Positions 1,046 through 17,662 of a stretch of 64,000 bases of DNA are shown in pieces. Position numbers and translations under genes: made by a program. Positions within the stretch are counted from its first letter, which is position 1; each line of letters starts with the position of its first letter. The notes under the pieces were generated by a model. That model was not told the DNA's origin. It ran no database searches and was given only the letters and a program-made list of their open reading frames with translations. The stretch lies in assembly GCA_018825365.1 (NCBI GenBank), contig JAHJEV010000003.1, positions 387,669 to 451,668 on the forward strand, given 5' to 3'. This DNA is from Patescibacteria group bacterium. Lineage in GTDB: Bacteria > Patescibacteriota > WWE3 > UBA101185 > UBA10185.

Positions 1046-1119
1046 TGGGGGATCGTCTAAAGGTAGGACGTCGCGCCCTGAACGCGATAATTGGGGTTCG
1101 AGTCCCTGTCCCCCAGCCA
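1046..1119 (+). tRNA. tRNA-Gln (anticodon CUG) with unusual C at position 33
   Basis: Manually folded cloverleaf. Acceptor TGGGGGA/TCCCCCA, D-stem GTCT/GGAC, anticodon stem TCGCG/CGCGA with loop CCCTGAA (CTG at 34-36). T-arm TGGGG-TTCGAGT-CCCTG, discriminator G, encoded CCA. Confidence 0.6.
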
Positions 1120-1199
1120 GAACGGGCACCCTATGCGTCCCGCTTCCCTCGAATACACTACAACAGCTTGATAAAAACCCTATTGAAAATCTCTTAGTT

Positions 1200-1240: not shown

Positions 1241-1972
1241 ATGAAGTTAAAGTCACTTGAAAATTTTGATGAATCAATAAATAAAACCCTGAATTTATAT
1301 AGACTTGTAAACCAAAATATTAACTTTACAAAGGGCTTTATAGAGTATTTTGGGATTGAAAAACTATCAGCTCAAGAAGATAGAAAACGCGCTGAAGGTT
1401 ACAAAAATATTCTTAATATGGAGATTCCAAATGAGAACCTCGAATATTTTTCTGAAATATCTTTTGTTGCAATGTTCTCAAACTTCGAATTATTCCAAGT
1501 AGACTTACTAAAAGAGCTCTGGACCAAATATTCTAAATCCTTTGATACAAATACTGGTTATACTTACAACGAAATTAAAGATTTTACAAGTATAAAGAAA
1601 TTTAGAGACTATATTATTGATAAAGAGGCAAATAGTAAGTCCATTAATATAGCTGACTGGGGAAAATACTTGGAAAATACATTCAAAATAACTCCTTTTG
1701 AAACAAAAAGAGGAAATTTATTAGACGGGATTATCCATATGGGACAGATACGGGATGCGTTAATGCATTCAGGAGGTAAAGTGAGCTCGATACTACTTTC
1801 AAAACTAAAAAAGTATAATTATGAAGGTGAAAAATATAACATAGGAGATCAATTTCTGAAAAAATGGACCTACGACAAAATATTTATCATTCAAGCAGGC
1901 TTACTCAAAGAAGTGCATAACAACATACAAAAATGGGCATCCGTGAAGAATAAACCATACGAAAGTTCTTGA
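1241..1972 (+). CDS. Hypothetical protein (first gene of the accessory island downstream of tRNA-Gln)
   Basis: 243-aa ORF, AT-rich, no recognisable motif. Its stop codon overlaps repeat copy a. Confidence 0.5.
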   Translation: MKLKSLENFDESINKTLNLYRLVNQNINFTKGFIEYFGIEKLSAQEDRKRAEGYKNILNMEIPNENLEYFSEISFVAMFSNFELFQVDLLKELWTKYSKSFDTNTGYTYNEIKDFTSIKKFRDYIIDKEANSKSINIADWGKYLENTFKITPFETKRGNLLDGIIHMGQIRDALMHSGGKVSSILLSKLKKYNYEGEKYNIGDQFLKKWTYDKIFIIQAGLLKEVHNNIQKWASVKNKPYESS

Positions 1973-1990
1973 CCGACATGATCAGCCAAT
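1965..1990 (+). repeat. Short island repeat copy a (GTTCTTGACCGACATGATCAGCCAAT)
   Basis: Member of the 7-copy family GTTCTAGACC-N7-CTCAGCCA. A TTGAATGTTC fragment follows at 2013..2022. Confidence 0.7.
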
Positions 1991-2120
1991 CGGGACGGCT
2001 AAGGCTGCCATCTTGAATGTTCAATTTTCTTTATTATCTAGCTTTAGAATTTCATACTATATAAATGGATGACATAAAATGGGGTTAATGCAAGGTGTGT
2101 CACTCGTTACCTTTAACGAA

Positions 2121-2747
2121 TTAAAGTAGCTTATTAATTTCGGTGTAAGAAAGCTCGACTCCGAATATTTCAGTAAAAATTTTATCTACATCCTCTGAAT
2201 TTTTGTTGCCACGTAATTTCCTAATAAAAACCAAAAGCTTGTCCTTTCCAAATTTGTTGATTAAACACCCTATAACGAAACCCGCCTCCTTGTATATTTT
2301 GGCGTCTGTTTTATCGTAGTAGTCCAAGAAAGTTGTAAATTTTGTAGGTCTCTGCTTGTAACGAGCCAATTGGTTTGAAAGATAGATGCTTAGGCCTTCT
2401 GTAAGCCATCTTGGATTATCTGTAGCCGTTAAACTCTTGTAAAAATAGTGAATAACCTCATGCTTAATAAGCCTGGAATACTCATCATCAGTGTATTTAT
2501 GATTGCTCTCCTTTTCATAGTTATTAGGGTTTAGTAAGAATATATATTTACCATTGCCCCAACCCACGACCCATGCTTCGGTTTTAGTACCGTAGGCATA
2601 ATCAATACATTCTCTATCATCTATTAAACAAAATTTTGGTTCATTGTATGGTTTTTTGACATCAAAGAAGCTTTCCACTTCGGAAAGACCCTTCAAACAT
2701 AGTTGTTCTATTTTTTGATCATCTAATTTAGAAACTTTTAATATCAT
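2121..2747 (-). CDS. Zincin-like metallopeptidase (HEVIH ... WLTEGLSIY; Peptidase_MA_2-like)
   Basis: 208 aa with HExxH plus downstream EGxxxY. Sits directly downstream on the same strand of the Cys-rich peptide and the rSAM gene. Confidence 0.55.
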   Translation of the reverse strand: MILKVSKLDDQKIEQLCLKGLSEVESFFDVKKPYNEPKFCLIDDRECIDYAYGTKTEAWVVGWGNGKYIFLLNPNNYEKESNHKYTDDEYSRLIKHEVIHYFYKSLTATDNPRWLTEGLSIYLSNQLARYKQRPTKFTTFLDYYDKTDAKIYKEAGFVIGCLINKFGKDKLLVFIRKLRGNKNSEDVDKIFTEIFGVELSYTEINKLL

Positions 2748-2823
2748 ATTATTTTAAAGAAAGATGGTACCTTCGGTGATTGTTGTTAGCATTCACAGAA
2801 GGTACCTAATTCGTACAGACACA

Positions 2824-2955
2824 TTACTGATCGTCAGTAGGCCCATTGTTGGTGTCATTGCACATGGTGTCACAGGGCGGATCTTGGCCAGGGCCATACA
2901 ACTCGTCACAATCACAACTCGCCTGCACATCAAGAGCTACCAAACCGAGTGCCAT
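2824..2955 (-). CDS. Candidate RiPP precursor peptide, 43 aa, Cys/Asp-rich (MALGLVALDVQASCDCDELYGPGQDPPCDTMCNDTNNGPTDDQ)
   Basis: Hand-translated from the minus strand. AGGAGGTGA lies 6 nt upstream of the ATG and 25 nt after the rSAM stop. Four Cys, each followed by Asp/Asn. Not in the supplied ORF track, which shows only an antisense 93-aa ORF here. Confidence 0.5.
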   Translation of the reverse strand: MALGLVALDVQASCDCDELYGPGQDPPCDTMCNDTNNGPTDDQ

Positions 2956-2977
2956 TGTACTCACCTCCTTCCGGTTT

Positions 2978-4288
2978 CTAGACTTGTTCGACAATATGTC
3001 TCGTTATTAAAATGCTCATCGTTTCAAGTGCGTCAGACTCAGTAGCATTATAAGCTTGCGCTATCTGCTTGGCAGTTACTCCCTTCTCATTTAACGTTGA
3101 TTTTAGTATAGCATGAAGGGTTGAGTCTATTGCCTGCCAGTTGGCCGAGCTTCGATAAGCAATATAACCAAAATCCTCCTTGCGGAACCTTACCGAGGAC
3201 AATAACCTAATTACTGCACTTGCTGGAAATAGCTCGGGTTTGGCTACAAATCGTTGCGCAACTGGTTTTGAACCCAAACAGTAGGGATCACTACCAGATA
3301 GGTTTGTCCCTGCATTTAGTGACTCTATTCGGCATCCCGCACTACAAAACTTTGGATACTCTCGACACTCAACTGCACATGCTGCGGGTATGAGACTTCC
3401 ATCTCTCCACATACCCATATTCTGCCATGCCCCCAAAAGCCCGATTTCAATAGCATTCCCATAGGATATCGGGGCATGAGAACAAGGACGAATAGCTCCG
3501 TCAAACCCGAGAGTACAGCTGGTTCTGGCAGCAGAACAATGCCTGTCTCCAAACTCAGCGCGAGTTTCGTCATCTGGAAACAAACAAGCCGGGTATGGCT
3601 CCAATGAAGCTACCTGAATGCCAAAATCCCTCTTCAACCTTACAAGCTCCCTAAACATCTGCTGAATTTGCTGAGTCAAGAGCGAATACCCACTAAAGTC
3701 CTTGCAATTGAAGGGTTTGGATACTTTTGTTGCACAAAATGCCTGCGCGCCCAATTCGTAGGCCAATTTCCCGGTTTCGTAGATGGTATGGAAATTCTTT
3801 TGGGAAATAACCATGTTTACCGACACCCGAAAGCCATTTGCTATCGCAAGCCTAATGCCTGCAACAGTTCGACGATAGGCACCTTTCGTCTGGGCGATAT
3901 TATCGTTTAAAGTTGGATCAGCAGACATTAAAGAAGTTAGTATCGCTCTGATACCTAGTTGCCTCAGTAAAGAAATCATGCGTTTGTTCATTAGAGCTAG
4001 ATTTGTGTTAATGCTTATACGAACCCCGGCATCTTTCAAGGCAAGTAGCTCTGGCATAAGCTGTTCCAACACACCCAACGGTTCTCCACCAGTAAGAGTT
4101 ACGTGAAATACCTTGCTGTTGATTATCTCCTGTGCAGATTTGTTATGGACTTCCAGTTGTTTTGCACTAAGAGTCCGTTTTGGTCGCTTACCCCTACGCC
4201 AGTAGTTGTAGCAATGCACACAATTGTACGTGCACCACGGCGTAAGCTCCCATTGCACATCCAATGGTGCAGATAGTCTTGTGTACAC
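2978..4288 (-). CDS. Radical SAM/SPASM-domain peptide-modifying enzyme with C-terminal PqqD-like (RRE-like) domain
   Basis: CTYNCVHC (CxxxCxxC) near the N-terminus. Cys-rich SPASM region (CSAARTSC...CSHAP...CAVECREYPKFCSAGCR). C-terminal ~90 aa resembles the PqqD winged helix (YIAYRSSANWQAIDSTLHAIL...VTAKQIAQAYNATESDALETMSILITRHIV). GC content is much higher than the flanks. Confidence 0.85.
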   Translation of the reverse strand: MYTRLSAPLDVQWELTPWCTYNCVHCYNYWRRGKRPKRTLSAKQLEVHNKSAQEIINSKVFHVTLTGGEPLGVLEQLMPELLALKDAGVRISINTNLALMNKRMISLLRQLGIRAILTSLMSADPTLNDNIAQTKGAYRRTVAGIRLAIANGFRVSVNMVISQKNFHTIYETGKLAYELGAQAFCATKVSKPFNCKDFSGYSLLTQQIQQMFRELVRLKRDFGIQVASLEPYPACLFPDDETRAEFGDRHCSAARTSCTLGFDGAIRPCSHAPISYGNAIEIGLLGAWQNMGMWRDGSLIPAACAVECREYPKFCSAGCRIESLNAGTNLSGSDPYCLGSKPVAQRFVAKPELFPASAVIRLLSSVRFRKEDFGYIAYRSSANWQAIDSTLHAILKSTLNEKGVTAKQIAQAYNATESDALETMSILITRHIVEQV

Positions 4289-4378
4289 GTTTCACCTCCA
4301 TATTTAGGCTGATTATTTGATTAACAAAGTTCTTCGGGACAAATATAGAATAAATGATACAAAAAGTCAAGTTATTTG

Positions 4379-4537
4379 GCGTCATTGATACTTAAAAGGC
4401 AGTAAATGACAACCAACATTGCATAATATACCCAAGAGAATAAAACGAGACACTGAAACTGCCCTTTTTATAGTGTCTCATTTGTCTCATTTACATCCTG
4501 GAGAGTAAAATAGTTCTGAACCCGTATGCTCAGCCAG
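4379..4537 (+). repeat. Long island repeat copy 1 (~158 bp, ~90% identical to 9441..9597), ending in short-repeat copy b (4513..4537)
   Basis: Direct alignment by eye. Contains a TGcaTAATAT extended-10-like element and the hairpin GAGACACT-N17-AGTGTCTC (4447..4479). Lies upstream of ORF 4666. Confidence 0.7.
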
Positions 4538-4665
4538 TGAGATGAAAGCCGTGTATGTCCATTTATGTCACACAATGTTTACACTACCCCCGTATGCATT
4601 AGGATAGAGATTTAACCTCGGAGATGATATTCTAAAGTGGACGAAAATGTGTTTAAAAATTCATT

Positions 4666-5247
4666 ATGAAGCTTAATATATTTATAAAGTCGCTTGTGCT
4701 GAATGATTGTATTTTTTGGTTTTCAAACTATCTATTTCTTTCTATTGCAAGTATCCATATTTCAAAAAATATGGACAACGGTTCTACGCTAACTGCGGGC
4801 GTGTCTTTTGGAACATATTTCTTATTCAGGGGAATCACTGACCTGGTAAGCCCCCATCTTCACAAGAAACTTAGCACTAAAAACAAAGTTATTACTCTCA
4901 TTTTGTGTGTTTGTGCAGTATCCGCTGCCTTTTTCCTACTTTCATTTGTCAACAACGCCTATCTTGCAATCGTACTATTCGCAGCTATAGGTATCAGCCT
5001 AGGGATTTATAATCCCATCAAATATGCAGTTTTTTCTCTGCACTTGGATAAAAGTAAAGAGGAAAAAGAGTGGGGGCTAATGGATGGTGTTGGATTAATA
5101 AGTATCGCCCTCGCATCTTACCTTGGAAGTTATTTAGCGGAGAAAATTGGATTTGTTTACCTTCTAAGGATCTCCAGTCTTGGTTTTTTGCTTTCTACGC
5201 TTCCACTATTATTAAGGATACCGAGCTTACGCAAATATATATTTTAG
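4666..5247 (+). CDS. Membrane protein resembling the C-terminal half of an MFS transporter (possibly truncated)
   Basis: 193 aa with ~6 predicted TM helices. No N-terminal half is present. Confidence 0.4.
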   Translation: MKLNIFIKSLVLNDCIFWFSNYLFLSIASIHISKNMDNGSTLTAGVSFGTYFLFRGITDLVSPHLHKKLSTKNKVITLILCVCAVSAAFFLLSFVNNAYLAIVLFAAIGISLGIYNPIKYAVFSLHLDKSKEEKEWGLMDGVGLISIALASYLGSYLAEKIGFVYLLRISSLGFLLSTLPLLLRIPSLRKYIF

Positions 5248-5303
5248 CGACCGTGCAGAAATATTGGATCCTGGGCTGGGCCGTTAAGCCTGGGGAATAT
5301 AAT

Positions 5304-5329
5304 GGTTCTAGACCGACATGCTCAACCAG
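5304..5329 (+). repeat. Short island repeat copy c (GGTTCTAGACCGACATGCTCAACCAG)
   Basis: Family member lying between the ORF 4666 stop and the methyltransferase start. Confidence 0.7.
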
Positions 5330-5336
5330 TAAAAAT

Positions 5337-5933
5337 ATGTTAATGAATAAAATAGATATATTGTTAATAAATACCCCATTTAGAAAGTGGCTCTTAGATC
5401 GTGCTACCAAGAAGTACTATTTTGAGTATTTTCATGAATTGAAGGAGAAGACAGTTTTGGAAATAGGATGTGGAAGCGGTGGAGGGACGGAACTTATTCT
5501 AGAATATTTTTCCCCGCAACAAATAATTGCTACTGATCTTGATCCAAGATTAATTTCTCTGGCTAAAAGAAATGTTAAAAACAAAAAGGTTACTTTTGAA
5601 AAGGCTGACGCAACGAAGCTAACCTATGAGAATGAGGGGTTTGATGCAGTCTTTGATTACGGTGTAATTCATCATATTCCTTTGCCAGAATGGAAAAAAT
5701 GTTTAAACGAGACATATAGAGTGTTAAAACCGGGTGGAAAATTATTTGTATGGGATTTATCAATTGAATTTTTCAATACCGTTTATGGGAGAATAATCAA
5801 ATTCTTTAGTGTACATCCATACAGTAAGATGTATAGAAAACAAGAATTCGTGAATTACCTAAACTCAATAGGTTTTAAAATTATCAAAAGGGCTGAAGGA
5901 CCGAGGTACTTTGTTGTTATCGCAAAAAAGTAG
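5337..5933 (+). CDS. Class I SAM-dependent methyltransferase
   Basis: VLEIGCGSGGG motif I and an acidic motif II (ATDLD). Start set at ATG 5337 (MLMNKIDIL...). The longer track ORF from 5070 would read through repeat copy c. Confidence 0.7.
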   Translation: MLMNKIDILLINTPFRKWLLDRATKKYYFEYFHELKEKTVLEIGCGSGGGTELILEYFSPQQIIATDLDPRLISLAKRNVKNKKVTFEKADATKLTYENEGFDAVFDYGVIHHIPLPEWKKCLNETYRVLKPGGKLFVWDLSIEFFNTVYGRIIKFFSVHPYSKMYRKQEFVNYLNSIGFKIIKRAEGPRYFVVIAKK

Positions 5934-6006
5934 AAATTATGAGATTAACCCAATTCTTATAGTAGATCGCTATTGCATGATTAGCGTTTAGTTATAATGA
6001 TTGAAT

Positions 6007-6034
6007 GGTTCTAGACCGACATGCTCAGCCAACC
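6007..6034 (+). repeat. Short island repeat copy d (GGTTCTAGACCGACATGCTCAGCCAACC), preceded by TTGAATG
   Basis: Family member after the methyltransferase stop, flanked by a GGTT/AACC inverted repeat. Confidence 0.7.
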
Positions 6035-6140
6035 AGCTTTCATAGCAACATTAACTCAGTAGTTCGTAGGTATGGGTGGAACTCCACAAAATAAAAGGGC
6101 TTGCTTTGGTAACAAACCCTTTTGGACTATAGCGAAACCG

Positions 6141-6371
6141 TTAAATGTGATGAACTGGCTCTTCTTTACAAAGCTTATGTACAAAGCAAGACACATTTGG
6201 ATACTTAGTATCCAGCTGCTCGAACAAAAGCTTTAAGTCAACTCCAGAAGCCACAAAAGTTCCGTCTACATAGGCAACATAAGTGCCTTCCAGCAACTCC
6301 CCCAAAAGGCGATCTTTATCCTTCTCGTAAGCTTGCCAATTAACATCCGGTTTATTTGGTTTATTGGCCAT
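6141..6371 (-). CDS. Hypothetical small protein
   Basis: 76-aa ORF preceded by aaggagactgaaaATG. Confidence 0.4.
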   Translation of the reverse strand: MANKPNKPDVNWQAYEKDKDRLLGELLEGTYVAYVDGTFVASGVDLKLLFEQLDTKYPNVSCFVHKLCKEEPVHHI

Positions 6372-6482
6372 TTTCAGTCTCCTTCTTTTAGATTTTCTGG
6401 ATTATAGCACTTTCATAGAAGTTCCATATCTAATACTTAATACGAATTAACTAGAGTCAGTCAAAAAGTTCAAATAGCGTAC

Positions 6483-7601
6483 GTGACTGCCAGCCATTTT
6501 TCAACAAAGTTTTTTGCTACAATTAAGAAAACTATTATGAAGATTAAAGATTGGCATTTAATAGGCTTATCAGTATTTATATTCTTCTTAGATTTACTCA
6601 CATTAGGAAATCGTCAAGTTATTGATAATCAAGTAACTAATAAGATTGCTTTTGTTATTGCGTTACTGTGTGTTTTTACTTTTCTGTTTGGCATCATAAA
6701 AACTGTACGCAATATTTTTTCACATAGGAAAGTTGTAGATAAAATAAAAATAGAGCAGGAGGAAAAGCAGGGAAGTAGAGCAACCGGGGTAGAGATACGC
6801 CTTCGTAAACTTGTTGGAGTACTACTGATAGTGAGTGTTTCTCCATTGCTTTTATTCGGCCCATATATTATTTTGGGATTACCCAATCTTTTTTTAGCCT
6901 TATATCTGTTGTTAAACCGCCGATATCATCTTCTTTTTGATGGTTTACTTGTTTTCATTGGATGCGTAGGTTTCTATCTAAATAATTTAACTTTATATAA
7001 AAAAATAGAACTGTCTGTTTGTCCTGGATTAATCAATATCAATGAAATTCTTATAGTAAATGTTATCCCAGGATTAATCACATCTCTTTTTTTACTGGCT
7101 CCGTTATTCCTTTTTGTGGGAGACATTATTGCTCGATTGAAACTCGCGCACAAAGAAAGGTTATGTGTTATTTCCTTAATAACTATTGTTCTAGCGTTAC
7201 TTTTTCTTCCCTTTTTACATACTCCGAGAGTTGCTTTAGGAGAAGCAACAGGCGGTGGAACGGGCGGTGGAAAAGGTGGTCTACAACATTTTTCTGCATG
7301 GAATACTCAATTTCTCATGTCATATGATCAAACCTTAAAGTCTTATATATTCACTGCTCAAATGCCCAATCAAGACAGCAACAATTCCTCTTCAATAACT
7401 AACATCTGTGTTGATGGTAACCTTATCTCGATTACTAAAGAAAATGACATGTTACAGGTAGACAATGGGGTAATTTCCGATGGAAAAATTTCGGTAGCTC
7501 CCGGACAGACGGCTACTATTAAACTGGTTTCTCAAAAACCCTTCTATGTGGTTTCTTTATTTGAAGGAATATTTCATTATTTAAATAGCTTTCTTAAATA
7601 A
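6483..7601 (+). CDS. Hypothetical polytopic membrane protein with Gly-rich segment (GEATGGGTGGGKGG)
   Basis: 372-aa ORF with multiple hydrophobic helices. Start uncertain: GTG 6483 or ATG 6537. Confidence 0.45.
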   Translation: MTASHFSTKFFATIKKTIMKIKDWHLIGLSVFIFFLDLLTLGNRQVIDNQVTNKIAFVIALLCVFTFLFGIIKTVRNIFSHRKVVDKIKIEQEEKQGSRATGVEIRLRKLVGVLLIVSVSPLLLFGPYIILGLPNLFLALYLLLNRRYHLLFDGLLVFIGCVGFYLNNLTLYKKIELSVCPGLININEILIVNVIPGLITSLFLLAPLFLFVGDIIARLKLAHKERLCVISLITIVLALLFLPFLHTPRVALGEATGGGTGGGKGGLQHFSAWNTQFLMSYDQTLKSYIFTAQMPNQDSNNSSSITNICVDGNLISITKENDMLQVDNGVISDGKISVAPGQTATIKLVSQKPFYVVSLFEGIFHYLNSFLK

Positions 7602-7612
7602 GTTAAAACGTA

Positions 7613-7660
7613 GAGACTCTCAGCTGGTTCTAGACCCGTATATTCAGCCAGAAAGGTCTC
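7613..7660 (+). repeat. Short island repeat copy e (core GGTTCTAGACCCGTATATTCAGCCAG, 7626..7651) with flanking imperfect inverted repeat GAGACTCTCAGCTGG / CCAGAAAGGTCTC
   Basis: Family member immediately after the ORF 6483..7601 stop. Confidence 0.7.
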
Positions 7661-8254
7661 TTGTTTCTCCACCGATATGTATCTTATACTAACTATGTGG
7701 TAAGCGAGATTATTCCAGTGGAACCAATAGAAGTATTAGCATCTTTTTTGGTATCTAACAATGTTATTGGATTTGTAAATGAGCATAAATCATTTAATGG
7801 TGCCACGCTCCAGCGTTATATAAAACAACAATATGATTTCTATAATAAATTGCCCAAAACAATTTTAGAAGCAAGGGTACACGATAAAAATAGGCTGAGT
7901 AGAATATTTAAGCACAGGTGGTTTTTACAAATAGTACCGTTAAAGTATATAGGGGTATGGCCGGGTGTTGGAGATTTACCTAAAGAATGGAGTGCTTTTT
8001 CTGTGCTTGACATTAGCAAACGTCTAGAGGGTACAAACAAAACCCTCCATTCAGTTCAAAAAATATATTCTATGATTCCATACATTAATGAAATACTTTA
8101 TCTATTACCCCCAATTCTTGTTATGGGTAGTGAGATACGAGATATAAACAATAACCAACTAATGCCATTTGATGCAGACGATGGCTCTCACAGGTGTATA
8201 GCTGCTGCTTTAAACGGCGTGGAAGAAGTTAAATGCTATGTCGGACTATCCTAA
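7661..8254 (+). CDS. Hypothetical protein with ParB/Srx/DGQHR-like motif (FDADDGSHRCIAAALNG)
   Basis: 197-aa ORF. The DGSHR..AA motif resembles the ParB-like nuclease and DndB DGQHR signature. Confidence 0.4.
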   Translation: MFLHRYVSYTNYVVSEIIPVEPIEVLASFLVSNNVIGFVNEHKSFNGATLQRYIKQQYDFYNKLPKTILEARVHDKNRLSRIFKHRWFLQIVPLKYIGVWPGVGDLPKEWSAFSVLDISKRLEGTNKTLHSVQKIYSMIPYINEILYLLPPILVMGSEIRDINNNQLMPFDADDGSHRCIAAALNGVEEVKCYVGLS

Positions 8255-8316
8255 TCAGATCTAATATAAATTTATTAATTAGATACACTCCGATGCCTAA
8301 GTTATAATATCAAAGT

Positions 8317-9369
8317 ATGGTAACTACTAACGACCAAAGCGAATCCAATAAAGTGCAACGTAAAACGTATGTTGAGCATCACGGTAAGGTCGCTGAGGCA
8401 GGTGATAGATTTAAACACGTTATGGCAATAGCACTGGATCCAATATCTAAATATGAAAACGGCATTATTCGCTGCATTACTAGCCGACAAGGGAATGTAG
8501 AAATAGGCGGTTACATAGACCGAAGCGAACTTCACACAATTAAAGGCAACTCCCTTGAGCACTTTATCATTGGGGAAAGATTAAAAATGCGTAACGAAGA
8601 CGAAATCATTAAACAGGTCGGTGGGGAAGACCTGGATTTCATAGGACTTGAAGACCCAGACATTTTTATTGACGAACATACTGGTCTTACACATATATAC
8701 TTCACAATGCCCTTCTTGAGCAAAAAAGAGAATATGAGCTTGGTGAATCTTGGACATGCTGTTGGCAATGACCTAAATTCCCTTGAAATGACATTGCCTG
8801 TTCTTACAGCAGAGTATAAAACAAATGCATGCGCAAAGGAGGTTTCTATATCCCCACTCAATAGACTGGGGGTTAGAAATAACCTTATAGAGTCAAGCGC
8901 CTATGAAGAGGGTATTTGGTATTCCACAGTGAGAATTGCAATAGCAAAAGACTTAGGTAAATCATGGGAGTTTGGAGAAACTGTATTCCATCCAAACGAG
9001 CACAAGATTCCATGGATTGCCGGCCACGCTTCCCCAGGGCCACTTTTACCCAAAACATTTATTGATCTTGGCAAAGGAAGGATGCTTGGCATTATAAACG
9101 GACGCGAGGCTAACCAGATTATCGGTAAGAACATTAAATATGGAATGTTCTCAGTTGGACTTTTTGTTTATGATTATGAGAATGGAAAAATCGAATGGGT
9201 ATCACCAAAACCCCTAATCCAGGATAGCCTGGCAAAAACTATCACATTCGCCAGTCAGTTCATAGAAACAAATAAAGGCATGGGAATTCTGTATGCCCAT
9301 GTTGATGACTCTTTCGTGCGTGCTTACACTTTGTATGCAGAGGGTATCAGGTCATTACTACCATTTTAA
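8317..9369 (+). CDS. Hypothetical protein
   Basis: 350-aa ORF with no motif I can name confidently. A beta-propeller-like glycosidase is possible but unsupported. Confidence 0.45.
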   Translation: MVTTNDQSESNKVQRKTYVEHHGKVAEAGDRFKHVMAIALDPISKYENGIIRCITSRQGNVEIGGYIDRSELHTIKGNSLEHFIIGERLKMRNEDEIIKQVGGEDLDFIGLEDPDIFIDEHTGLTHIYFTMPFLSKKENMSLVNLGHAVGNDLNSLEMTLPVLTAEYKTNACAKEVSISPLNRLGVRNNLIESSAYEEGIWYSTVRIAIAKDLGKSWEFGETVFHPNEHKIPWIAGHASPGPLLPKTFIDLGKGRMLGIINGREANQIIGKNIKYGMFSVGLFVYDYENGKIEWVSPKPLIQDSLAKTITFASQFIETNKGMGILYAHVDDSFVRAYTLYAEGIRSLLPF

Positions 9370-9440
9370 TACTCAAATAAGTGTTTAAGTTAACCCTAGC
9401 CAAAGAAAACTACATCTAGTTAACAGATAGACAAAAACTA

Positions 9441-9597
9441 GCGTCATTGATACTTAAAGACAATAAATAACAACTAACATTGCATAATATATCCTAGAGA
9501 ATAAAATGAGACACTGAAACTACCCTTTTATACTGTCTCGCTTGTCTCATTTACATCCTGGAGAATAAGAAGGTTCTAAACCCGTATGCTCGGCCAA
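9441..9597 (+). repeat. Long island repeat copy 2 (~157 bp), ending in short-repeat copy f (9572..9597)
   Basis: ~90% identical to 4379..4537, with the same hairpin and promoter-like element. Lies upstream of ORF 9640. Confidence 0.7.
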
Positions 9598-9639
9598 TTA
9601 AAAATTAAGAAATGTAATTTTTTGTTGTATTATTAGAAT

Positions 9640-10134
9640 ATGAAAGTTCCTAAAGTATTGAAGTTCTCTGGATTATTTATCATTTTATTTTTGGTCATTT
9701 TTTATGCTTCCACTCTTGTCGCTTACCGATATGGTGCAAAATGTCATTGCTATGGATTCAAAACCAACGGCTTGTGTTTGGGTATAAATACGGTATGTAC
9801 AGGGTTGGGACCAGCTTTGCATGTAAATTTTAATAACAATATGACTGAAAACTGTAATTCCCAAAAAGACGCGAATACTTTAACTATAGATTTTGCTCAA
9901 TGTAAAAATTGTGAAGAAATAATTTACGTCGGTTTTGGCTCAACAACGTATGAGATGTATAAATCTCAAGATGATAATTACTGCACAATGCAATATGGAG
10001 GGGAAATCGAAAATCCTAATTGGAAAGGTGATTTGAACACCACATGTACAGTTCCAAGAAACATTGGAATCAAAACCTTTAATATTACCAACTATGGTGT
10101 GGATTTTTCATCTCTAGCGGCATATTGTAAATAG
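9640..10134 (+). CDS. Secreted cysteine-rich protein (N-terminal signal/TM helix)
   Basis: 164 aa. Hydrophobic N-terminus followed by 13 Cys spread through a polar domain. Confidence 0.5.
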   Translation: MKVPKVLKFSGLFIILFLVIFYASTLVAYRYGAKCHCYGFKTNGLCLGINTVCTGLGPALHVNFNNNMTENCNSQKDANTLTIDFAQCKNCEEIIYVGFGSTTYEMYKSQDDNYCTMQYGGEIENPNWKGDLNTTCTVPRNIGIKTFNITNYGVDFSSLAAYCK

Positions 10135-10137
10135 CTA

Positions 10138-10163
10138 GTTCTAGACCTATATACTCAGCCAAG
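10138..10163 (+). repeat. Short island repeat copy g (GTTCTAGACCTATATACTCAGCCAAG)
   Basis: Family member beginning 3 nt after the TAG of ORF 9640..10134. Last copy seen in the window. Confidence 0.7.
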
Positions 10164-17020: not shown

Positions 17021-17662
17021 TTGTTCGTGAGAGTCGTTACCGGAAACAAAATTGAAGAGATAAATAAGCAAAAATTCCAAGAAATGACTGGTGGTTACTC
17101 CCGTGTTGAAATTGATTTGGGTACCGGAGATGGAAGGTTTGTTTATAAAAATGCCCTCTTAAGAAAAGACACCCTTTTTATTGGGGTTGACCCGGCGGAA
17201 AAACAATTGGAAATTTATTCAAAAAAAGCTGCAAAAGAAAAGGTTCAAAATTTAATTTATGTAGTATCTTCCTTTGAGATGCTACCAAGCGAGCTTAGAG
17301 AAACTGCGGATAAAATATACGTGAGCTTTCCATGGGGTACCTTGCTCGAAAACATTGTTAAACCAACAAAGGGTGGCTTAGATAAACTTCTGGAGTTATT
17401 AAAAGAAAAAGGAGAACTAGAAATAATTTTGGGGTACGCGCAGGAACTTGAACCGTCAGAAACAAAAAGATTAAACCTTCCCCCAATTCACTTAGGTTTA
17501 ATAAACGATATTATAGTTCCGGCTTTTGAGGACAGATCCTTTCATGCAAAAGAATTTTACGAAATGAGCAAAGAACAGCTTGGGGGTGTAGAAACCACAT
17601 GGGCAAAAAAGCTTAGATTTGGCAGGGACAGGAAAATCTACAAACTAGTATTCTCCAAGTAA
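17021..17662 (+). CDS. KamB/NpmA-family 16S rRNA (adenine1408-N1)-methyltransferase homolog
   Basis: Motifs VEIDLGTGDGRFVYK, FIGVDP, SFPWGTLLE and C-terminal TWAKKLRFGRDRK, matching my recollection of NpmA/KamB. TTG start with an extended -10 (TGaTAAAAT) immediately upstream. Confidence 0.5.
   Translation: MFVRVVTGNKIEEINKQKFQEMTGGYSRVEIDLGTGDGRFVYKNALLRKDTLFIGVDPAEKQLEIYSKKAAKEKVQNLIYVVSSFEMLPSELRETADKIYVSFPWGTLLENIVKPTKGGLDKLLELLKEKGELEIILGYAQELEPSETKRLNLPPIHLGLINDIIVPAFEDRSFHAKEFYEMSKEQLGGVETTWAKKLRFGRDRKIYKLVFSK

What the first reader, a model, noticed from the sequence alone, without database searches (positions are those of the whole stretch)
4379..9597. Two ~158-bp near-identical segments upstream of unrelated island genes, carrying a promoter-like element and a conserved hairpin
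Segments 4379..4537 and 9441..9597 are ~90% identical. Each sits upstream of a different plus-strand gene (4666 membrane protein; 9640 Cys-rich secreted protein). Each contains TTGCATAATAT (extended -10-like), a GAGACACT-N17-AGTGTCTC hairpin, a tandem TGTCTCATTT motif, and ends in a short-repeat copy. Either a mobile promoter/5' UTR module or a small structured RNA is duplicated within the island.
Basis: seen in the sequence. Interest (0 to 1): 0.6.

Follow-up and report, generated by a model that had tools for sequence, protein, structure and literature searches.

The report
Shared tails of mobile gene cassettes
The two look-alike 158-base segments are the end pieces of two mobile gene cassettes in a cassette array next to a glutamine tRNA gene. 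Their last 24 bases mimic the tRNA's end and look like a docking site for a large serine recombinase, in a system that is widespread in ultra-small (CPR) bacteria and that I could not find described.

Summary
Segments 4379-4537 and 9441-9597 are 87% identical, and they are the only two copies in the window.

They are not primarily upstream modules of the genes that follow. Each is the 3' tail of the preceding cassette, and it contains four parts:
- a dead relic of the last codons of an Mrr-type endonuclease gene;
- that gene's 3' UTR, with a stable inverted repeat built on TGTCTCATTT boxes;
- a CCTGGAGA linker;
- a 24-nt core, GTTCTAGACC-NNN-ATGCTCAGCCA.

The core occurs 7 times, plus one degenerate copy, only at 1965-10161. 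That stretch lies downstream of tRNA-Gln, and each core sits at a gene end. The core mimics the T-loop-to-CCA end of tRNA-Gln.

The same core was found on more than 119 metagenome contigs. In 17 fetched loci and in the window, tRNA-Gln lies upstream on the same strand. Related strains differ by whole cassettes, with breakpoints exactly after ...CAGCCA.

In three loci a large serine recombinase gene ends inside the core. A 70%-identical homologue ends at a genuine tRNA-Gln.

Best reading: an extended attachment-site arm plus a terminator-like boundary. An outward promoter is not excluded. A structured RNA is not supported.

The parts
1046..1119 (+). tRNA-Gln (CUG). It anchors the cassette array. 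Its 3' end GGTTCGAGTCCCTGTCCCCCAGCCA is the model that the repeat mimics.
   Evidence: ARAGORN and Rfam. Sequence. tRNA-Gln lies upstream on the same strand as the repeats in 17 other loci.
1965..1988 (+). Core repeat copy 1 (GTTCTTGACCGACATGATCAGCCA). It overlaps the stop codon of ORF 1241..1972. It is followed by ATCGGGACGG, which matches the first bases beyond the junction at recombinase genes in L124 and L001.
4379..4405 (+). Segment A, coding relic: ASLILKRQ-stop, the last 8 codons of an Mrr_cat-type endonuclease gene. No gene is attached to it.
   Evidence: Translation. Alignment with L014, whose ORF end matches Pfam Mrr_cat with E = 1.7e-11.
4406..4461 (+). Segment A, lineage-specific 3' UTR. 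It contains TTGCATAATAT (4419-4429), AGAGAATAAAAC (4435-4446) and the left hairpin arm GAGACACT (4447-4454).
   Evidence: This stretch is shared only with segment B and L014.
4443..4483 (.). Inverted repeat AAACGAGACACT / AGTGTCTCATTT, 11 of 12 complementary, with a 17-nt loop. An A-tract lies before it and a T-rich run after it.
4462..4512 (+). Segment A, family-wide conserved arm: CCCTTTTTATAG, the tandem boxes TGTCTCATTTGTCTCATTT (4474-4492), ACAT, CCTGGAGAG (4497-4505) and TAAAAT (4506-4511).
   Evidence: Alignments. The promoter scan gives TTGTCT-18-TAAAAT.
4513..4536 (+). Core repeat copy 2 (GTTCTGAACCCGTATGCTCAGCCA). It marks the end of segment A and of the cassette that carries the minus-strand radical-SAM and peptidase genes.
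5305..5328 (+). Core repeat copy 3, at the end of the MFS half-transporter cassette.
   Evidence: The strain breakpoint against L042 falls exactly at 5328|5329.
6008..6031 (+). Core repeat copy 4, a perfect match to the consensus, at the end of the methyltransferase cassette.
6468..6496 (+). Degenerate core (GTTCAAATAGCGTACGTGACTGCCAGCCA). It marks the end of a small cassette carrying a 76-aa minus-strand ORF.
   Evidence: Homology with L042 and L099 resumes at 6491-6497.
7627..7650 (+). Core repeat copy 5, at the end of the 372-aa ORF cassette. The same cassette occurs in L042 and L099 with different neighbours.
9387..9470 (+). Segment B and 54 nt to its left, coding relic: KLTLAKENYI-stop-LTDRQKLASLILKDNK-stop. 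This is about 27 terminal codons of the same Mrr_cat-type gene, broken by an in-frame stop.
9504..9552 (.). Inverted repeat in B: AAATGAGACA pairs with the second box TGTCTCATTT (10 of 10) or, less well, with the first box.
9523..9572 (+). Segment B, family-wide conserved arm. It holds the boxes (9534-9552), CCTGGAGAA (9557-9565) and TAAGAA (9566-9571). The near-identical strain contig L062 shares sequence with the window only from 9522 rightwards.
9573..9596 (+). Core repeat copy 6 (GTTCTAAACCCGTATGCTCGGCCA). It marks the end of segment B and of the two-gene cassette 7651-9596.
10138..10161 (+). Core repeat copy 7. It starts right after the stop of the Cys-rich ORF 9640..10134 and is the last copy in the array. 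Housekeeping genes follow.

Best explanation
**What each segment is (shown).** Each 158-bp segment is the right-hand tail of a mobile gene cassette. From left to right it holds:
- a dead remnant of the 3' end of an Mrr-type endonuclease gene;
- that gene's 3' UTR;
- a conserved arm of about 50 nt with TGTCTCATTT boxes, whose first box pairs with an inverted copy in the UTR;
- a 24-nt core that imitates the T-loop-to-CCA end of tRNA-Gln.

**Where the cassettes sit (shown).** Cassettes lie head to tail downstream of tRNA-Gln. Each ends in ...CAGCCA, and the next one starts at the following base. The tails therefore lie in front of unrelated genes only by packing.

**How it most likely works (inferred).**
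- The core is a half-site for a CPR clade of large serine recombinases. These enzymes insert DNA exactly at the CCA end of tRNA-Gln or at a pre-existing core.
- Because every inserted unit brings a new tRNA-like end, the array can grow and its cargo can be swapped.
- The hairpin acts as a two-way transcription stop at the cassette boundary. In recombinase-bearing elements it sits just beyond the stop codon of the convergent recombinase gene.

**Why A and B look alike.** They descend from one Mrr cassette tail whose cargo was replaced twice. The similarity does not come from selection on the whole 158 bp.
For: **1. Array.**
- The core has 7 copies within 3 mismatches, all on the plus strand and all within 1965-10161. 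Zero are expected by chance. One degenerate copy lies at 6468-6496.

**2. Family.**
- More than 119 metagenome contigs carry the core.
- In 112 distinct copies, positions 1-10 and 14-24 are nearly invariant and positions 11-13 are free.
- In copies without the arm, the upstream ORF is co-oriented in 51 cases against 16, and the median distance from stop codon to core is 23 nt.

**3. tRNA link.**
- tRNA-Gln is upstream on the same strand in all 18 cases where one was found.
- The core matches the tRNA-Gln 3' end at 15 of 21 specified positions, in the same register.
- The flank that follows tRNA-Gln in the window and in L028 follows arm+core in L012, L106, L120 and L121.

**4. Cassette turnover.**
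- L042 is 97-98% identical to the window. It joins window position 5328 to about 6497 and so lacks two cassettes.
- L099 carries the 372-aa cassette between different neighbours.
- L062 is 99.4% identical to the window but diverges left of 9522.

**5. Recombinase.**
- L001:3736-5313(-) has Resolvase, Recombinase and Zn_ribbon_recom domains. It ends W-L-S-M-S-V-stop, which is the reverse complement of the core.
- Homologues in L039 and L087 end at cores.
- The 70%-identical P0003 ends at a genuine tRNA-Gln, and the DNA beyond the ...CAGCCA junction is homologous to that in L001.
- 42 of the 120 closest homologues end in (W/L)L(P/R)..DSN, the antisense translation of a tRNA 3' end.
- The 11 + 3 + 10 block layout fits the published half-site of serine integrases: an inner recombinase-domain region, a tolerant stretch, and a 9-bp distal zinc-ribbon motif at positions 16-24 (PMC3783163).

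**6. Relic.**

**7. Flat identity.** A-B identity is 80-92% in every block.

**8. Hairpin.**
- z is -3.4 to -4.8.
- The stem pair at position 6 is A-T in 7 copies and G-C in 3.
- A-tract and T-tract flanks are present, and L087 has a canonical terminator at the same place on the recombinase strand.
Against: - No recombinase gene was found in the window (tblastn). Recombinase-core adjacency rests on three loci plus one tRNA-Gln case.
- Cassette left ends show no conserved second half-site. A classical serine-integrase site needs one, so single-gene cassettes may move by another route, for example homologous exchange between cores.
- Only about 20-25% of cores carry the box arm. Only 10-11 of 138 copies carry the inverted box. 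Neither can therefore be essential for recombination.
- The loops are 15-29 nt, which is long for an intrinsic terminator. The terminator scan (loop 3-8) did not report this hairpin.
- In copy A the upstream genes are divergent, so a plus-strand terminator has nothing to stop there.
- The sequence-level conservation of CTTTTTATACTGTCTCATTTGTCTCATTTACATCCTGGAGA in copies that lack any hairpin is not explained by termination.
- There are no expression data.
Confidence: 0.6

Rival explanations
1. **Outward-facing promoter or 5' leader module.** The conserved arm is a sigma-70-type promoter, with -35 TTGTCT inside the second box, a spacer of about 18 nt and a -10 next to the core. It fires across the cassette boundary and expresses whatever lies downstream. 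This can coexist with the attachment-site reading.
For: - TTGTCT-18-TAAAAT lies at 4482-4511, scoring 9 of 12.
- The same spacing to a TAnnnT hexamer is found in L002, L017, L041, L106 and L115.
- Copies with a longer gap carry extended -10 motifs: TGCTATAAT, TGTTAAAAT, TGATACAAT.
- In L091, L118 and L069 the boxes lie 55-170 nt upstream of co-oriented ORF starts, with no core in between.
- Both window copies are followed by co-oriented genes, 130 nt and 43 nt after the core.
Against: - The -10-like hexamer is the least conserved part of the arm: GATTAA, GAGTAC, TAAGAA, GGGTAG, CAACAG. Copy B has TAAGAA.
- The count of TAnnnT at spacer 18 is 8, barely above other spacings, which reach 7 at spacer 21.
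- Promoter-like sites in the region are no more frequent than in shuffles: 33 found against 30.9 expected.
- The ORF downstream of arm-bearing cores is on the opposite strand in 14 of 26 cases. In L001 and L039 it is the convergent recombinase gene.
- TTGCATAATAT lies in the lineage-specific half.
Confidence: 0.3
2. **Accessory protein-binding sites.** The TGTCTCATT boxes occur as 1-3 direct copies plus an inverted copy. On this reading they are binding sites for a DNA-binding protein of the mobile element: a recombination accessory or directionality factor, a repressor, or a replication initiator (iterons next to the AT-rich CTTTTTATA).
For: - Conservation is at the sequence level without RNA covariation.
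- Box copy number varies from 1 (L043, L121) to 3 (L017), and extra boxes occur further upstream in L034, L039 and L097.
- 24 of 30 tandem boxes lie within 110 nt of a core.
- All three recombinase-adjacent cores have a hairpin or box module nearby.
- Elements encode a Toprim + AAA_25 primase-helicase (L001, L124) and an S24 repressor-like protein (L120).
- From memory, not tested: small serine resolvases bind TGTCYNNTA-like half-sites.
Against: - No candidate binding protein co-occurs consistently.
- The L124 element at tRNA-Gln has no boxes.
- Serine integrases are not known to need accessory DNA sites (PMC3783163).
- The resolvase motif could not be checked in the paper library.
Confidence: 0.2
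3. **Neutral segmental duplication.** The two copies are a chance leftover of a duplication inside the island, with no function in any part.
For: - Identity is uniform across all blocks, including a dead coding relic, and substitutions are mostly transitions.
- There are only two copies in 64 kb.
Against: - The right-hand ~75 nt are conserved in many unrelated contigs with GC content of 32-50%, behind unrelated genes.
- The core is nearly invariant in 112 copies.
- The two copies were truncated at different points of the relic, 8 versus about 27 codons. This argues for two separate cargo replacements that both kept the tail.
Confidence: 0.1
4. **Small structured RNA gene.** The segment encodes an sRNA, or a tRNA-like RNA that ends in GCCA.
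For: - The local hairpin is stable.
- The 3' end resembles a tRNA end.
Against: - There is no Rfam match at gathering score or at E <= 10.
- The consensus structure energy is -2.2 and -2.05 kcal/mol, with at most 1 compensatory pair.
- The hairpin is absent from most family members.
- The acceptor-like strand ATGCTCA has no complementary partner upstream.
- The part 5' of the core is not significantly tRNA-like. The best result was p = 0.018 among 30 tests.
Confidence: 0.04

Closest known systems
Tycheposons and tandem tRNA-targeted integrative elements of Prochlorococcus genomic islands (bioRxiv 10.1101/2020.12.28.424599)
   Same: - Both have a site-specific integrase plus a primase/helicase module plus cargo, inserted at a tRNA gene.
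- In both, successive integrations push older elements into the island, and partial tRNA copies are scattered through it.
- Here, L001 and L124 carry a recombinase and a Toprim/AAA_25 gene at a core or at tRNA-Gln.
   Different: - 910 of 937 Prochlorococcus elements use tyrosine recombinases. Here the enzyme is a large serine recombinase.
- The repeated site here is not a copy of the host tRNA end. It is a near-invariant pseudo-end shared across hosts whose own tRNA-Gln sequences differ.
- Units are mostly single genes. Some are as short as 46-71 nt and carry no integrase.
Integron gene cassettes (attI / attC / IntI)
   Same: - Both are head-to-tail arrays of mostly co-oriented, mostly single-gene units.
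- Each unit carries one recombination site directly after the stop codon.
- There is one fixed entry point.
- Cassette content varies between strains.
   Different: - No tyrosine integron integrase was found among the ORFs that were scanned.
- The site is a 24-nt conserved sequence. It is not a 57-141-nt imperfect palindrome recognised as folded single-stranded DNA with R''/R' GTTRRRY boxes.
- The anchor is a tRNA gene end.
- The associated enzyme is a serine recombinase.
Attachment sites of phage large serine integrases (A118/LI, Bxb1, phiC31; PMC3783163)
   Same: - The half-site is about 24 bp.
- It has a conserved inner block, a few tolerant positions, and a conserved 9-10-bp distal block.
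- The recombinase has the Resolvase + Recombinase + zinc-ribbon architecture.
   Different: - Only the left half is conserved in most copies.
- The tRNA end and the core carry the distal motif in the same register. The 5-bp shift that distinguishes attB from attP is not seen.
- The recombinase ORF runs across the site.
- Arrays of such sites have not, to my knowledge, been described for these enzymes.
Lambda int-att-sib geometry (retroregulation; from established knowledge, not tested here)
   Same: A hairpin lies on the far side of the attachment site from a recombinase gene that reads towards the site. Integration therefore separates the gene from its 3' hairpin (L001, L039, L087).
   Different: - No evidence of RNase III processing.
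- The recombinase family is different.
- The window copies have no recombinase gene.

Membership tests
Large-serine-recombinase attachment site | A large serine recombinase gene (Resolvase + Recombinase + zinc ribbon) physically linked to the site | tested here: met
   Met in related loci. L001, L039 and L087 have the gene ending in the core. L124 has it ending at tRNA-Gln. Not met in the window itself.
Large-serine-recombinase attachment site | Half-site of about 20-25 bp with an inner block and a distal 9-bp motif | tested here: met
   Logo of 112 copies: positions 1-10 and 14-24 are conserved and positions 11-13 are free. Compared with PMC3783163.
Large-serine-recombinase attachment site | Two half-sites with imperfect dyad symmetry around a central dinucleotide | tested here: inconclusive
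   No general conservation lies to the right of ...CAGCCA. A subset shares A-N3-G-N-ACG or GAAYGGGCAC.
Large-serine-recombinase attachment site | Recombination between the site and its partner catalysed by the enzyme | not testable with these tools
   This needs an in vitro or in vivo assay. Only the natural products were seen: junctions exactly at CCA.
Integron cassette / attC | IntI-type tyrosine recombinase with an adjacent attI and Pc promoter | tested here: not met
   The window array ORFs and the ORFs beside the arm-bearing cores in related loci have no Phage_integrase hit. The Pfam scan of 126 further ORFs lists only 25 of 144 families, so a single integrase hit there could have gone unlisted. 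No recurrent recombinase family appears in ORF clustering.
Integron cassette / attC | attC: imperfect inverted repeats R''-L''...L'-R' with a GTTRRRY core, low sequence conservation | tested here: not met
   The core is a highly conserved direct sequence. GTTCTAG does not fit GTTRRRY, and no upstream inverse copy is present.
Integron cassette / attC | Array of co-oriented units, with one site after each ORF and content that varies between strains | tested here: met
tRNA-targeting integrative element (tycheposon-like) | Integration at a specific tRNA gene, leaving partial tRNA copies | tested here: met
   18 of 18 arrays with a nearby tRNA are anchored at tRNA-Gln. The copies are mimics, not exact duplicates.
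tRNA-targeting integrative element (tycheposon-like) | Integrase plus replication module inside the element | tested here: inconclusive
   Present in L001 and L124. Absent from the window array and from most cassettes.
Intrinsic (Rho-independent) terminator | G+C-rich stem, short loop, then a U-tract | tested here: inconclusive
   The stem is 7-12 bp and a T-rich tail is present on both strands, but the loop is 15-29 nt. The consensus scan did not report it. L087 has a canonical one at the same position.
Sigma-70-type promoter | -35 and -10 hexamers at 16-18 nt spacing, conserved among homologous copies | tested here: inconclusive
   Present in A, scoring 9 of 12. The -10 is not conserved across the family.
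Known RNA family / structured sRNA | Match to a covariance model, or a conserved structure with covariation | tested here: not met

The most novel reading that the evidence does not exclude
CPR (Patescibacteria) bacteria carry an integron-like gene-cassette system run by a large serine recombinase instead of a tyrosine integrase.
- The CCA end of tRNA-Gln is the fixed entry site.
- A 24-nt pseudo-tRNA end at the tail of every cassette is the mobile site.
- Because each inserted unit regenerates a tRNA-like end, arrays grow and shuffle.
- Some tails, including the two 158-bp segments here, additionally carry a boundary module (terminator and/or outward promoter, TGTCTCATT boxes) that insulates or drives neighbouring cassettes.
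Probability: 0.35. Interest if true: 0.8.

Novelty: new variant of a known kind. Interest (0 to 1): 0.6.

Why it matters
CPR bacteria have tiny genomes, and little is known about how they exchange genes.

A cassette array anchored at tRNA-Gln would be a concrete, testable route for gene flux in this radiation. The array has a near-invariant 24-nt site shared across many lineages and is linked to a large, tRNA-targeting serine-recombinase clade with 2773 homologues at E <= 1e-20. The cargo seen here includes transporters, metal pumps and defence genes such as Mrr, Shedu, Fic and a viperin-like radical SAM enzyme.

It would also supply naturally paired serine integrases and short attachment sites. 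These are sought-after genome-engineering parts.

It also shows that 'promoter-like repeats upstream of unrelated genes' in such genomes can be cassette tails.

Tried and rejected
- **Rfam.** Searches at gathering score and at E <= 10 found only tRNAs and noise.
- **Viral, phage and plasmid collections.** There were no hits in viral contigs for either the core or the arm. There were none in phage or plasmid records. This is not a known phage or plasmid feature.
- **Diversity-generating retroelement (TR/VR pair).** Rejected. The mismatches are mostly transitions, not adenine-specific, and neither copy lies in a live ORF.
- **Small ORF on the minus strand (MRQMRHYKK...).** Rejected.
  - A 1-nt indel shifts the frame between A and B.
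  - The lengths are 14-32 aa with unrelated C-termini.
  - The 'MRQ' repeats are simply the 9-nt boxes, whose copy number varies from 1 to 3.
- **ORF starting at the ATG before the core (MVLDRHAQP).** Rejected. The ATG is absent in most copies.
- **Xer/dif-like site and IS200/IS605- or IS91-type ends.** Considered from the sequence alone and dropped. There is no dyad symmetry, no conserved left end and no recurrent gene family among the ORFs next to cores.
- **Displaced genuine tRNA 3' ends.** Rejected. ATGCTCA cannot pair with the tRNA 5' end, and no host tRNA-Gln has this end.
- **Whole arm as a decayed tRNA-Gln.** Not significant.
- **Recurrent neighbour gene.** Clustering of 663 ORFs gave only cargo families.
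- **Right end of the L124 element.** Not found.
- **Literature.** Searches found no description of this array.

Full report
**1. The observation**

Segments 4379-4537 and 9441-9597 align over their full length. 139 of 159 columns are identical (87.4%), with two 1-nt gaps, 15 transitions and 3 transversions. Exact shared blocks of 13-23 nt occur only at these two places in the 64-kb window.

All named motifs are present:
- TTGCATAATAT is in both copies.
- GAGACACT-N17-AGTGTCTC is in A. In B the right arm has one mismatch, but the left arm pairs perfectly with the second box.
- The tandem TGTCTCATTT box is perfect in A and imperfect in B.
- Both segments end in a copy of a short repeat.

The 65-nt hairpin region folds much better than shuffles on both strands, with z between -3.4 and -4.8.

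**2. The short repeat is the key**

A repeat search found a 24-28-nt direct repeat. A pattern search with up to 3 mismatches finds seven copies of GTTCTAGACC-NNN-ATGCTCAGCCA. All are on the plus strand and all lie within 1965-10161. None lies elsewhere in the window, and zero are expected by chance. An eighth, degenerate copy is at 6468-6496.

Each copy lies at or just after the end of a gene or small gene group. The stretch starts downstream of tRNA-Gln (1046-1119) and ends before housekeeping genes (NUDIX, purA, dus).

The core has the same register as the 3' end of tRNA-Gln:
- core: GG TTCTAGA CCnnn ATGCTCA G CCA
- tRNA-Gln: GG TTCGAGT CCCTG TCCCCCA G CCA

15 of 21 specified positions match. 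However, the acceptor-like strand of the core cannot pair with the tRNA 5' end.

**3. The family outside the window**

The window is from MAG GCA_018813105.1. The arm's 21-mer hits two WWE3 genomes.

Most hits have 0-1 mismatch to the consensus even at positions the pattern left free, and many contigs carry several same-strand copies.

In 112 distinct copies, positions 1-10 and 14-24 are almost invariant and positions 11-13 are free. Position -1 is usually G and position -3 usually A. Nothing is conserved downstream.

ARAGORN finds a tRNA-Gln upstream on the same strand as the cores in 17 loci and in the window. There is no counter-example among loci that have a tRNA-Gln.

The host tRNA-Gln sequences differ from one another and from the core. 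The core is therefore a conserved mimic and not a duplicated host end.

In copies without the box arm, the upstream ORF is co-oriented in 51 cases against 16. The median distance from stop codon to core is 23 nt.

**4. The units behave as cassettes**

- Contig L042 is 97-98% identical to the window. It joins window position 5328 directly to about 6497 and so lacks two units, 5329-6031 and 6032-6496. The breakpoints fall exactly after ...CAGCCA.
- The 372-aa-ORF unit occurs in the window, in L042 and in L099 with different neighbours.
- L099 also contains 'empty' units of 46 nt, and L013 and L040 contain one of 71 nt.
- L062 is 99.4% identical to the window from 9522 rightwards and unrelated to its left.
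- The flank that follows tRNA-Gln in the window and in L028 follows arm+core in L012, L106, L120 and L121. This is what insertion at the CCA end would produce.

**5. The enzyme**

No gene family recurs next to cores in general.

In L001, however, the core is abutted by a convergent 526-aa large serine recombinase with Resolvase, Recombinase and Zn_ribbon_recom domains. Its last codons, W-L-S-M-S-V-stop, are the reverse complement of the core. A Toprim_2 + AAA_25 primase-helicase gene follows. Homologues in L039 and L087 also end at cores.

P0003 is 70% identical to the L001 enzyme. It sits with a Toprim/AAA_25 gene and ends antisense to a genuine tRNA-Gln. The DNA beyond ...CAGCCA is homologous to that in L001.

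The clade is large, with 2773 homologues at E <= 1e-20. Sources name members as WWE3, Patescibacteria, Parcubacteria and Levybacteria. 42 of the 120 closest homologues end in (W/L)L(P/R)..DSN, the antisense reading of a tRNA CCA, acceptor and T-arm.

The core's layout of 11 + 3 + 10 nt fits the published serine-integrase half-site: an inner region, tolerant positions, and a 9-bp zinc-ribbon motif at positions 16-24 (PMC3783163).

There is no recombinase homologue in the window.

**6. Anatomy of the two segments**

L014 aligns with B at 78% identity. In L014 the left part of the homology is the end of an ORF...VELIDRQKLASLILKKQ-stop, which matches Pfam Mrr_cat with E = 1.7e-11.
- The same frame in B reads LAKENYI-stop-LTDRQKLASLILKDNK-stop.
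- In A it reads ASLILKRQ-stop, with no gene attached.

The segments therefore start with dead codons, followed by the former 3' UTR.

Only the right ~75 nt, from CCCTTTTTATA onward, is conserved family-wide. It is found behind unrelated genes: an S24 repressor-like gene, a radical SAM gene, Shedu and an ABC transporter.

A-B identity is flat across blocks: relic 89%, UTR 88%, hairpin and boxes 89%, linker 80%, core 92%. The A-B likeness therefore reflects descent from one tail. The different truncation points, 8 versus about 27 codons, indicate two separate cargo replacements.

**7. What the inner module does**

*Hairpin.*
- An inverted copy of the box is present in 10-11 of 138 distinct core copies.
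- One stem position switches A-T (7 copies) to G-C (3 copies).
- Most copies have an A-tract before the stem and a T-rich run after it. The better U-tract is often on the minus strand.
- All three recombinase-adjacent cores have a hairpin about 20 nt beyond the core. In L087 it is a canonical terminator on the recombinase strand.
- I therefore favour a two-way terminator or boundary. In autonomous elements it lies across the attachment site from the recombinase gene.

*Promoter.*
- TTGTCT-18-TAAAAT is present in A.
- Extended -10 motifs occur in longer-gap copies, and three box modules lie directly upstream of ORFs.
- Against this, the hexamer next to the core is the least conserved stretch, and the spacing signal is weak.

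*RNA.* The consensus folds of 12 copies are about -2 kcal/mol on either strand, without covariation.

*Open point.* The sequence-level conservation of the boxes is compatible with a protein-binding role. That remains open.

**8. Comparison and verdict**

The closest described analogue is the tycheposon/tRNA-island system. The array logic resembles integrons, and the site resembles a serine-integrase half-site. It differs from each in defining points (see the membership table).

I found no description of this array in the paper library.

- The finding as stated is confirmed.
- Its promoter/sRNA interpretation is only partly supported.
- What it uncovers is a probably undescribed variant of site-specific cassette accretion in CPR bacteria.

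Noticed in passing
window 2978-4288 (-) and 2121-2747 (-): The cassette to the left of segment A carries a radical SAM protein that matches prokaryotic viperin (pVip) models in PADLOC (E = 8e-18). Next to it is a weak Peptidase_MA-like ORF. This may be a defence cargo.
   Followed up: partly
window 4666-5247 (+): The 'membrane protein' after segment A is only the N-terminal half of an MFS transporter (profile positions 6-174 of 347). It ends 54 nt before core copy 3. It is either a truncated gene or a half-transporter cassette.
   Followed up: no
window 1989-1998: Directly after core copy 1 the sequence is ATCGGGACGG. This matches the first 10 nt beyond the junction at the recombinase genes of L124 (ATCGGTACGG) and L001 (AGCGGAACGC). 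It may be the scar of a lost recombinase element.
   Followed up: partly
P0001-P0120 (homologues of L001:3736-5313): Many large serine recombinases of this CPR clade have C-termini such as WLPRLDSNQQP or LLRGEDSNLQP. These are translated from the antisense strand of a tRNA 3' end, so the ORF crosses its own attachment site and its C-terminus changes on integration.
   Followed up: partly
L099:10480-10549 (-); L013:6804-6898 (+); L040:6491-6585 (-): There are 'empty' cassettes. One is a 46-nt unit made only of CCTGGAGAATATAATG plus a core. Another is a 71-nt unit between two identical cores.
   Followed up: no
L091, minus strand, about 160-480 from the right end: A box-and-hairpin module with a perfect extended -10 (TGCTATAAT) precedes a small hydrophobic ORF (MRQKTNNLKLVTIILTVIFSLVTGLL...). 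That ORF reads into the core.
   Followed up: no
L106:1521-2678 (-); L120:7575-8213 (-); L014:1-159 (+): Cargo next to arm-bearing cores includes a Shedu SduA_C protein, an S24 (LexA/CI-like) peptidase and an Mrr endonuclease. Fic and AbiEii-type AAA_21 hits appear in the bulk scan. The arrays may be enriched in defence genes.
   Followed up: no
window 17021-17662 (+): An ORF outside the array matches NpmA-type 16S rRNA (adenine1408-N1) methyltransferase (E = 4e-52). In other bacteria this family confers aminoglycoside resistance.
   Followed up: no
window 1120-1160; L028, L057, L096, L013 after tRNA-Gln: The first 20-30 nt after tRNA-Gln share a motif (GAAYGGGCAC..., or GATCACCAAAGGTGACC forming a small hairpin) across otherwise different genomes. 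This may be the chromosomal right half of the attachment site, or a tRNA 3' processing or terminator element.
   Followed up: no
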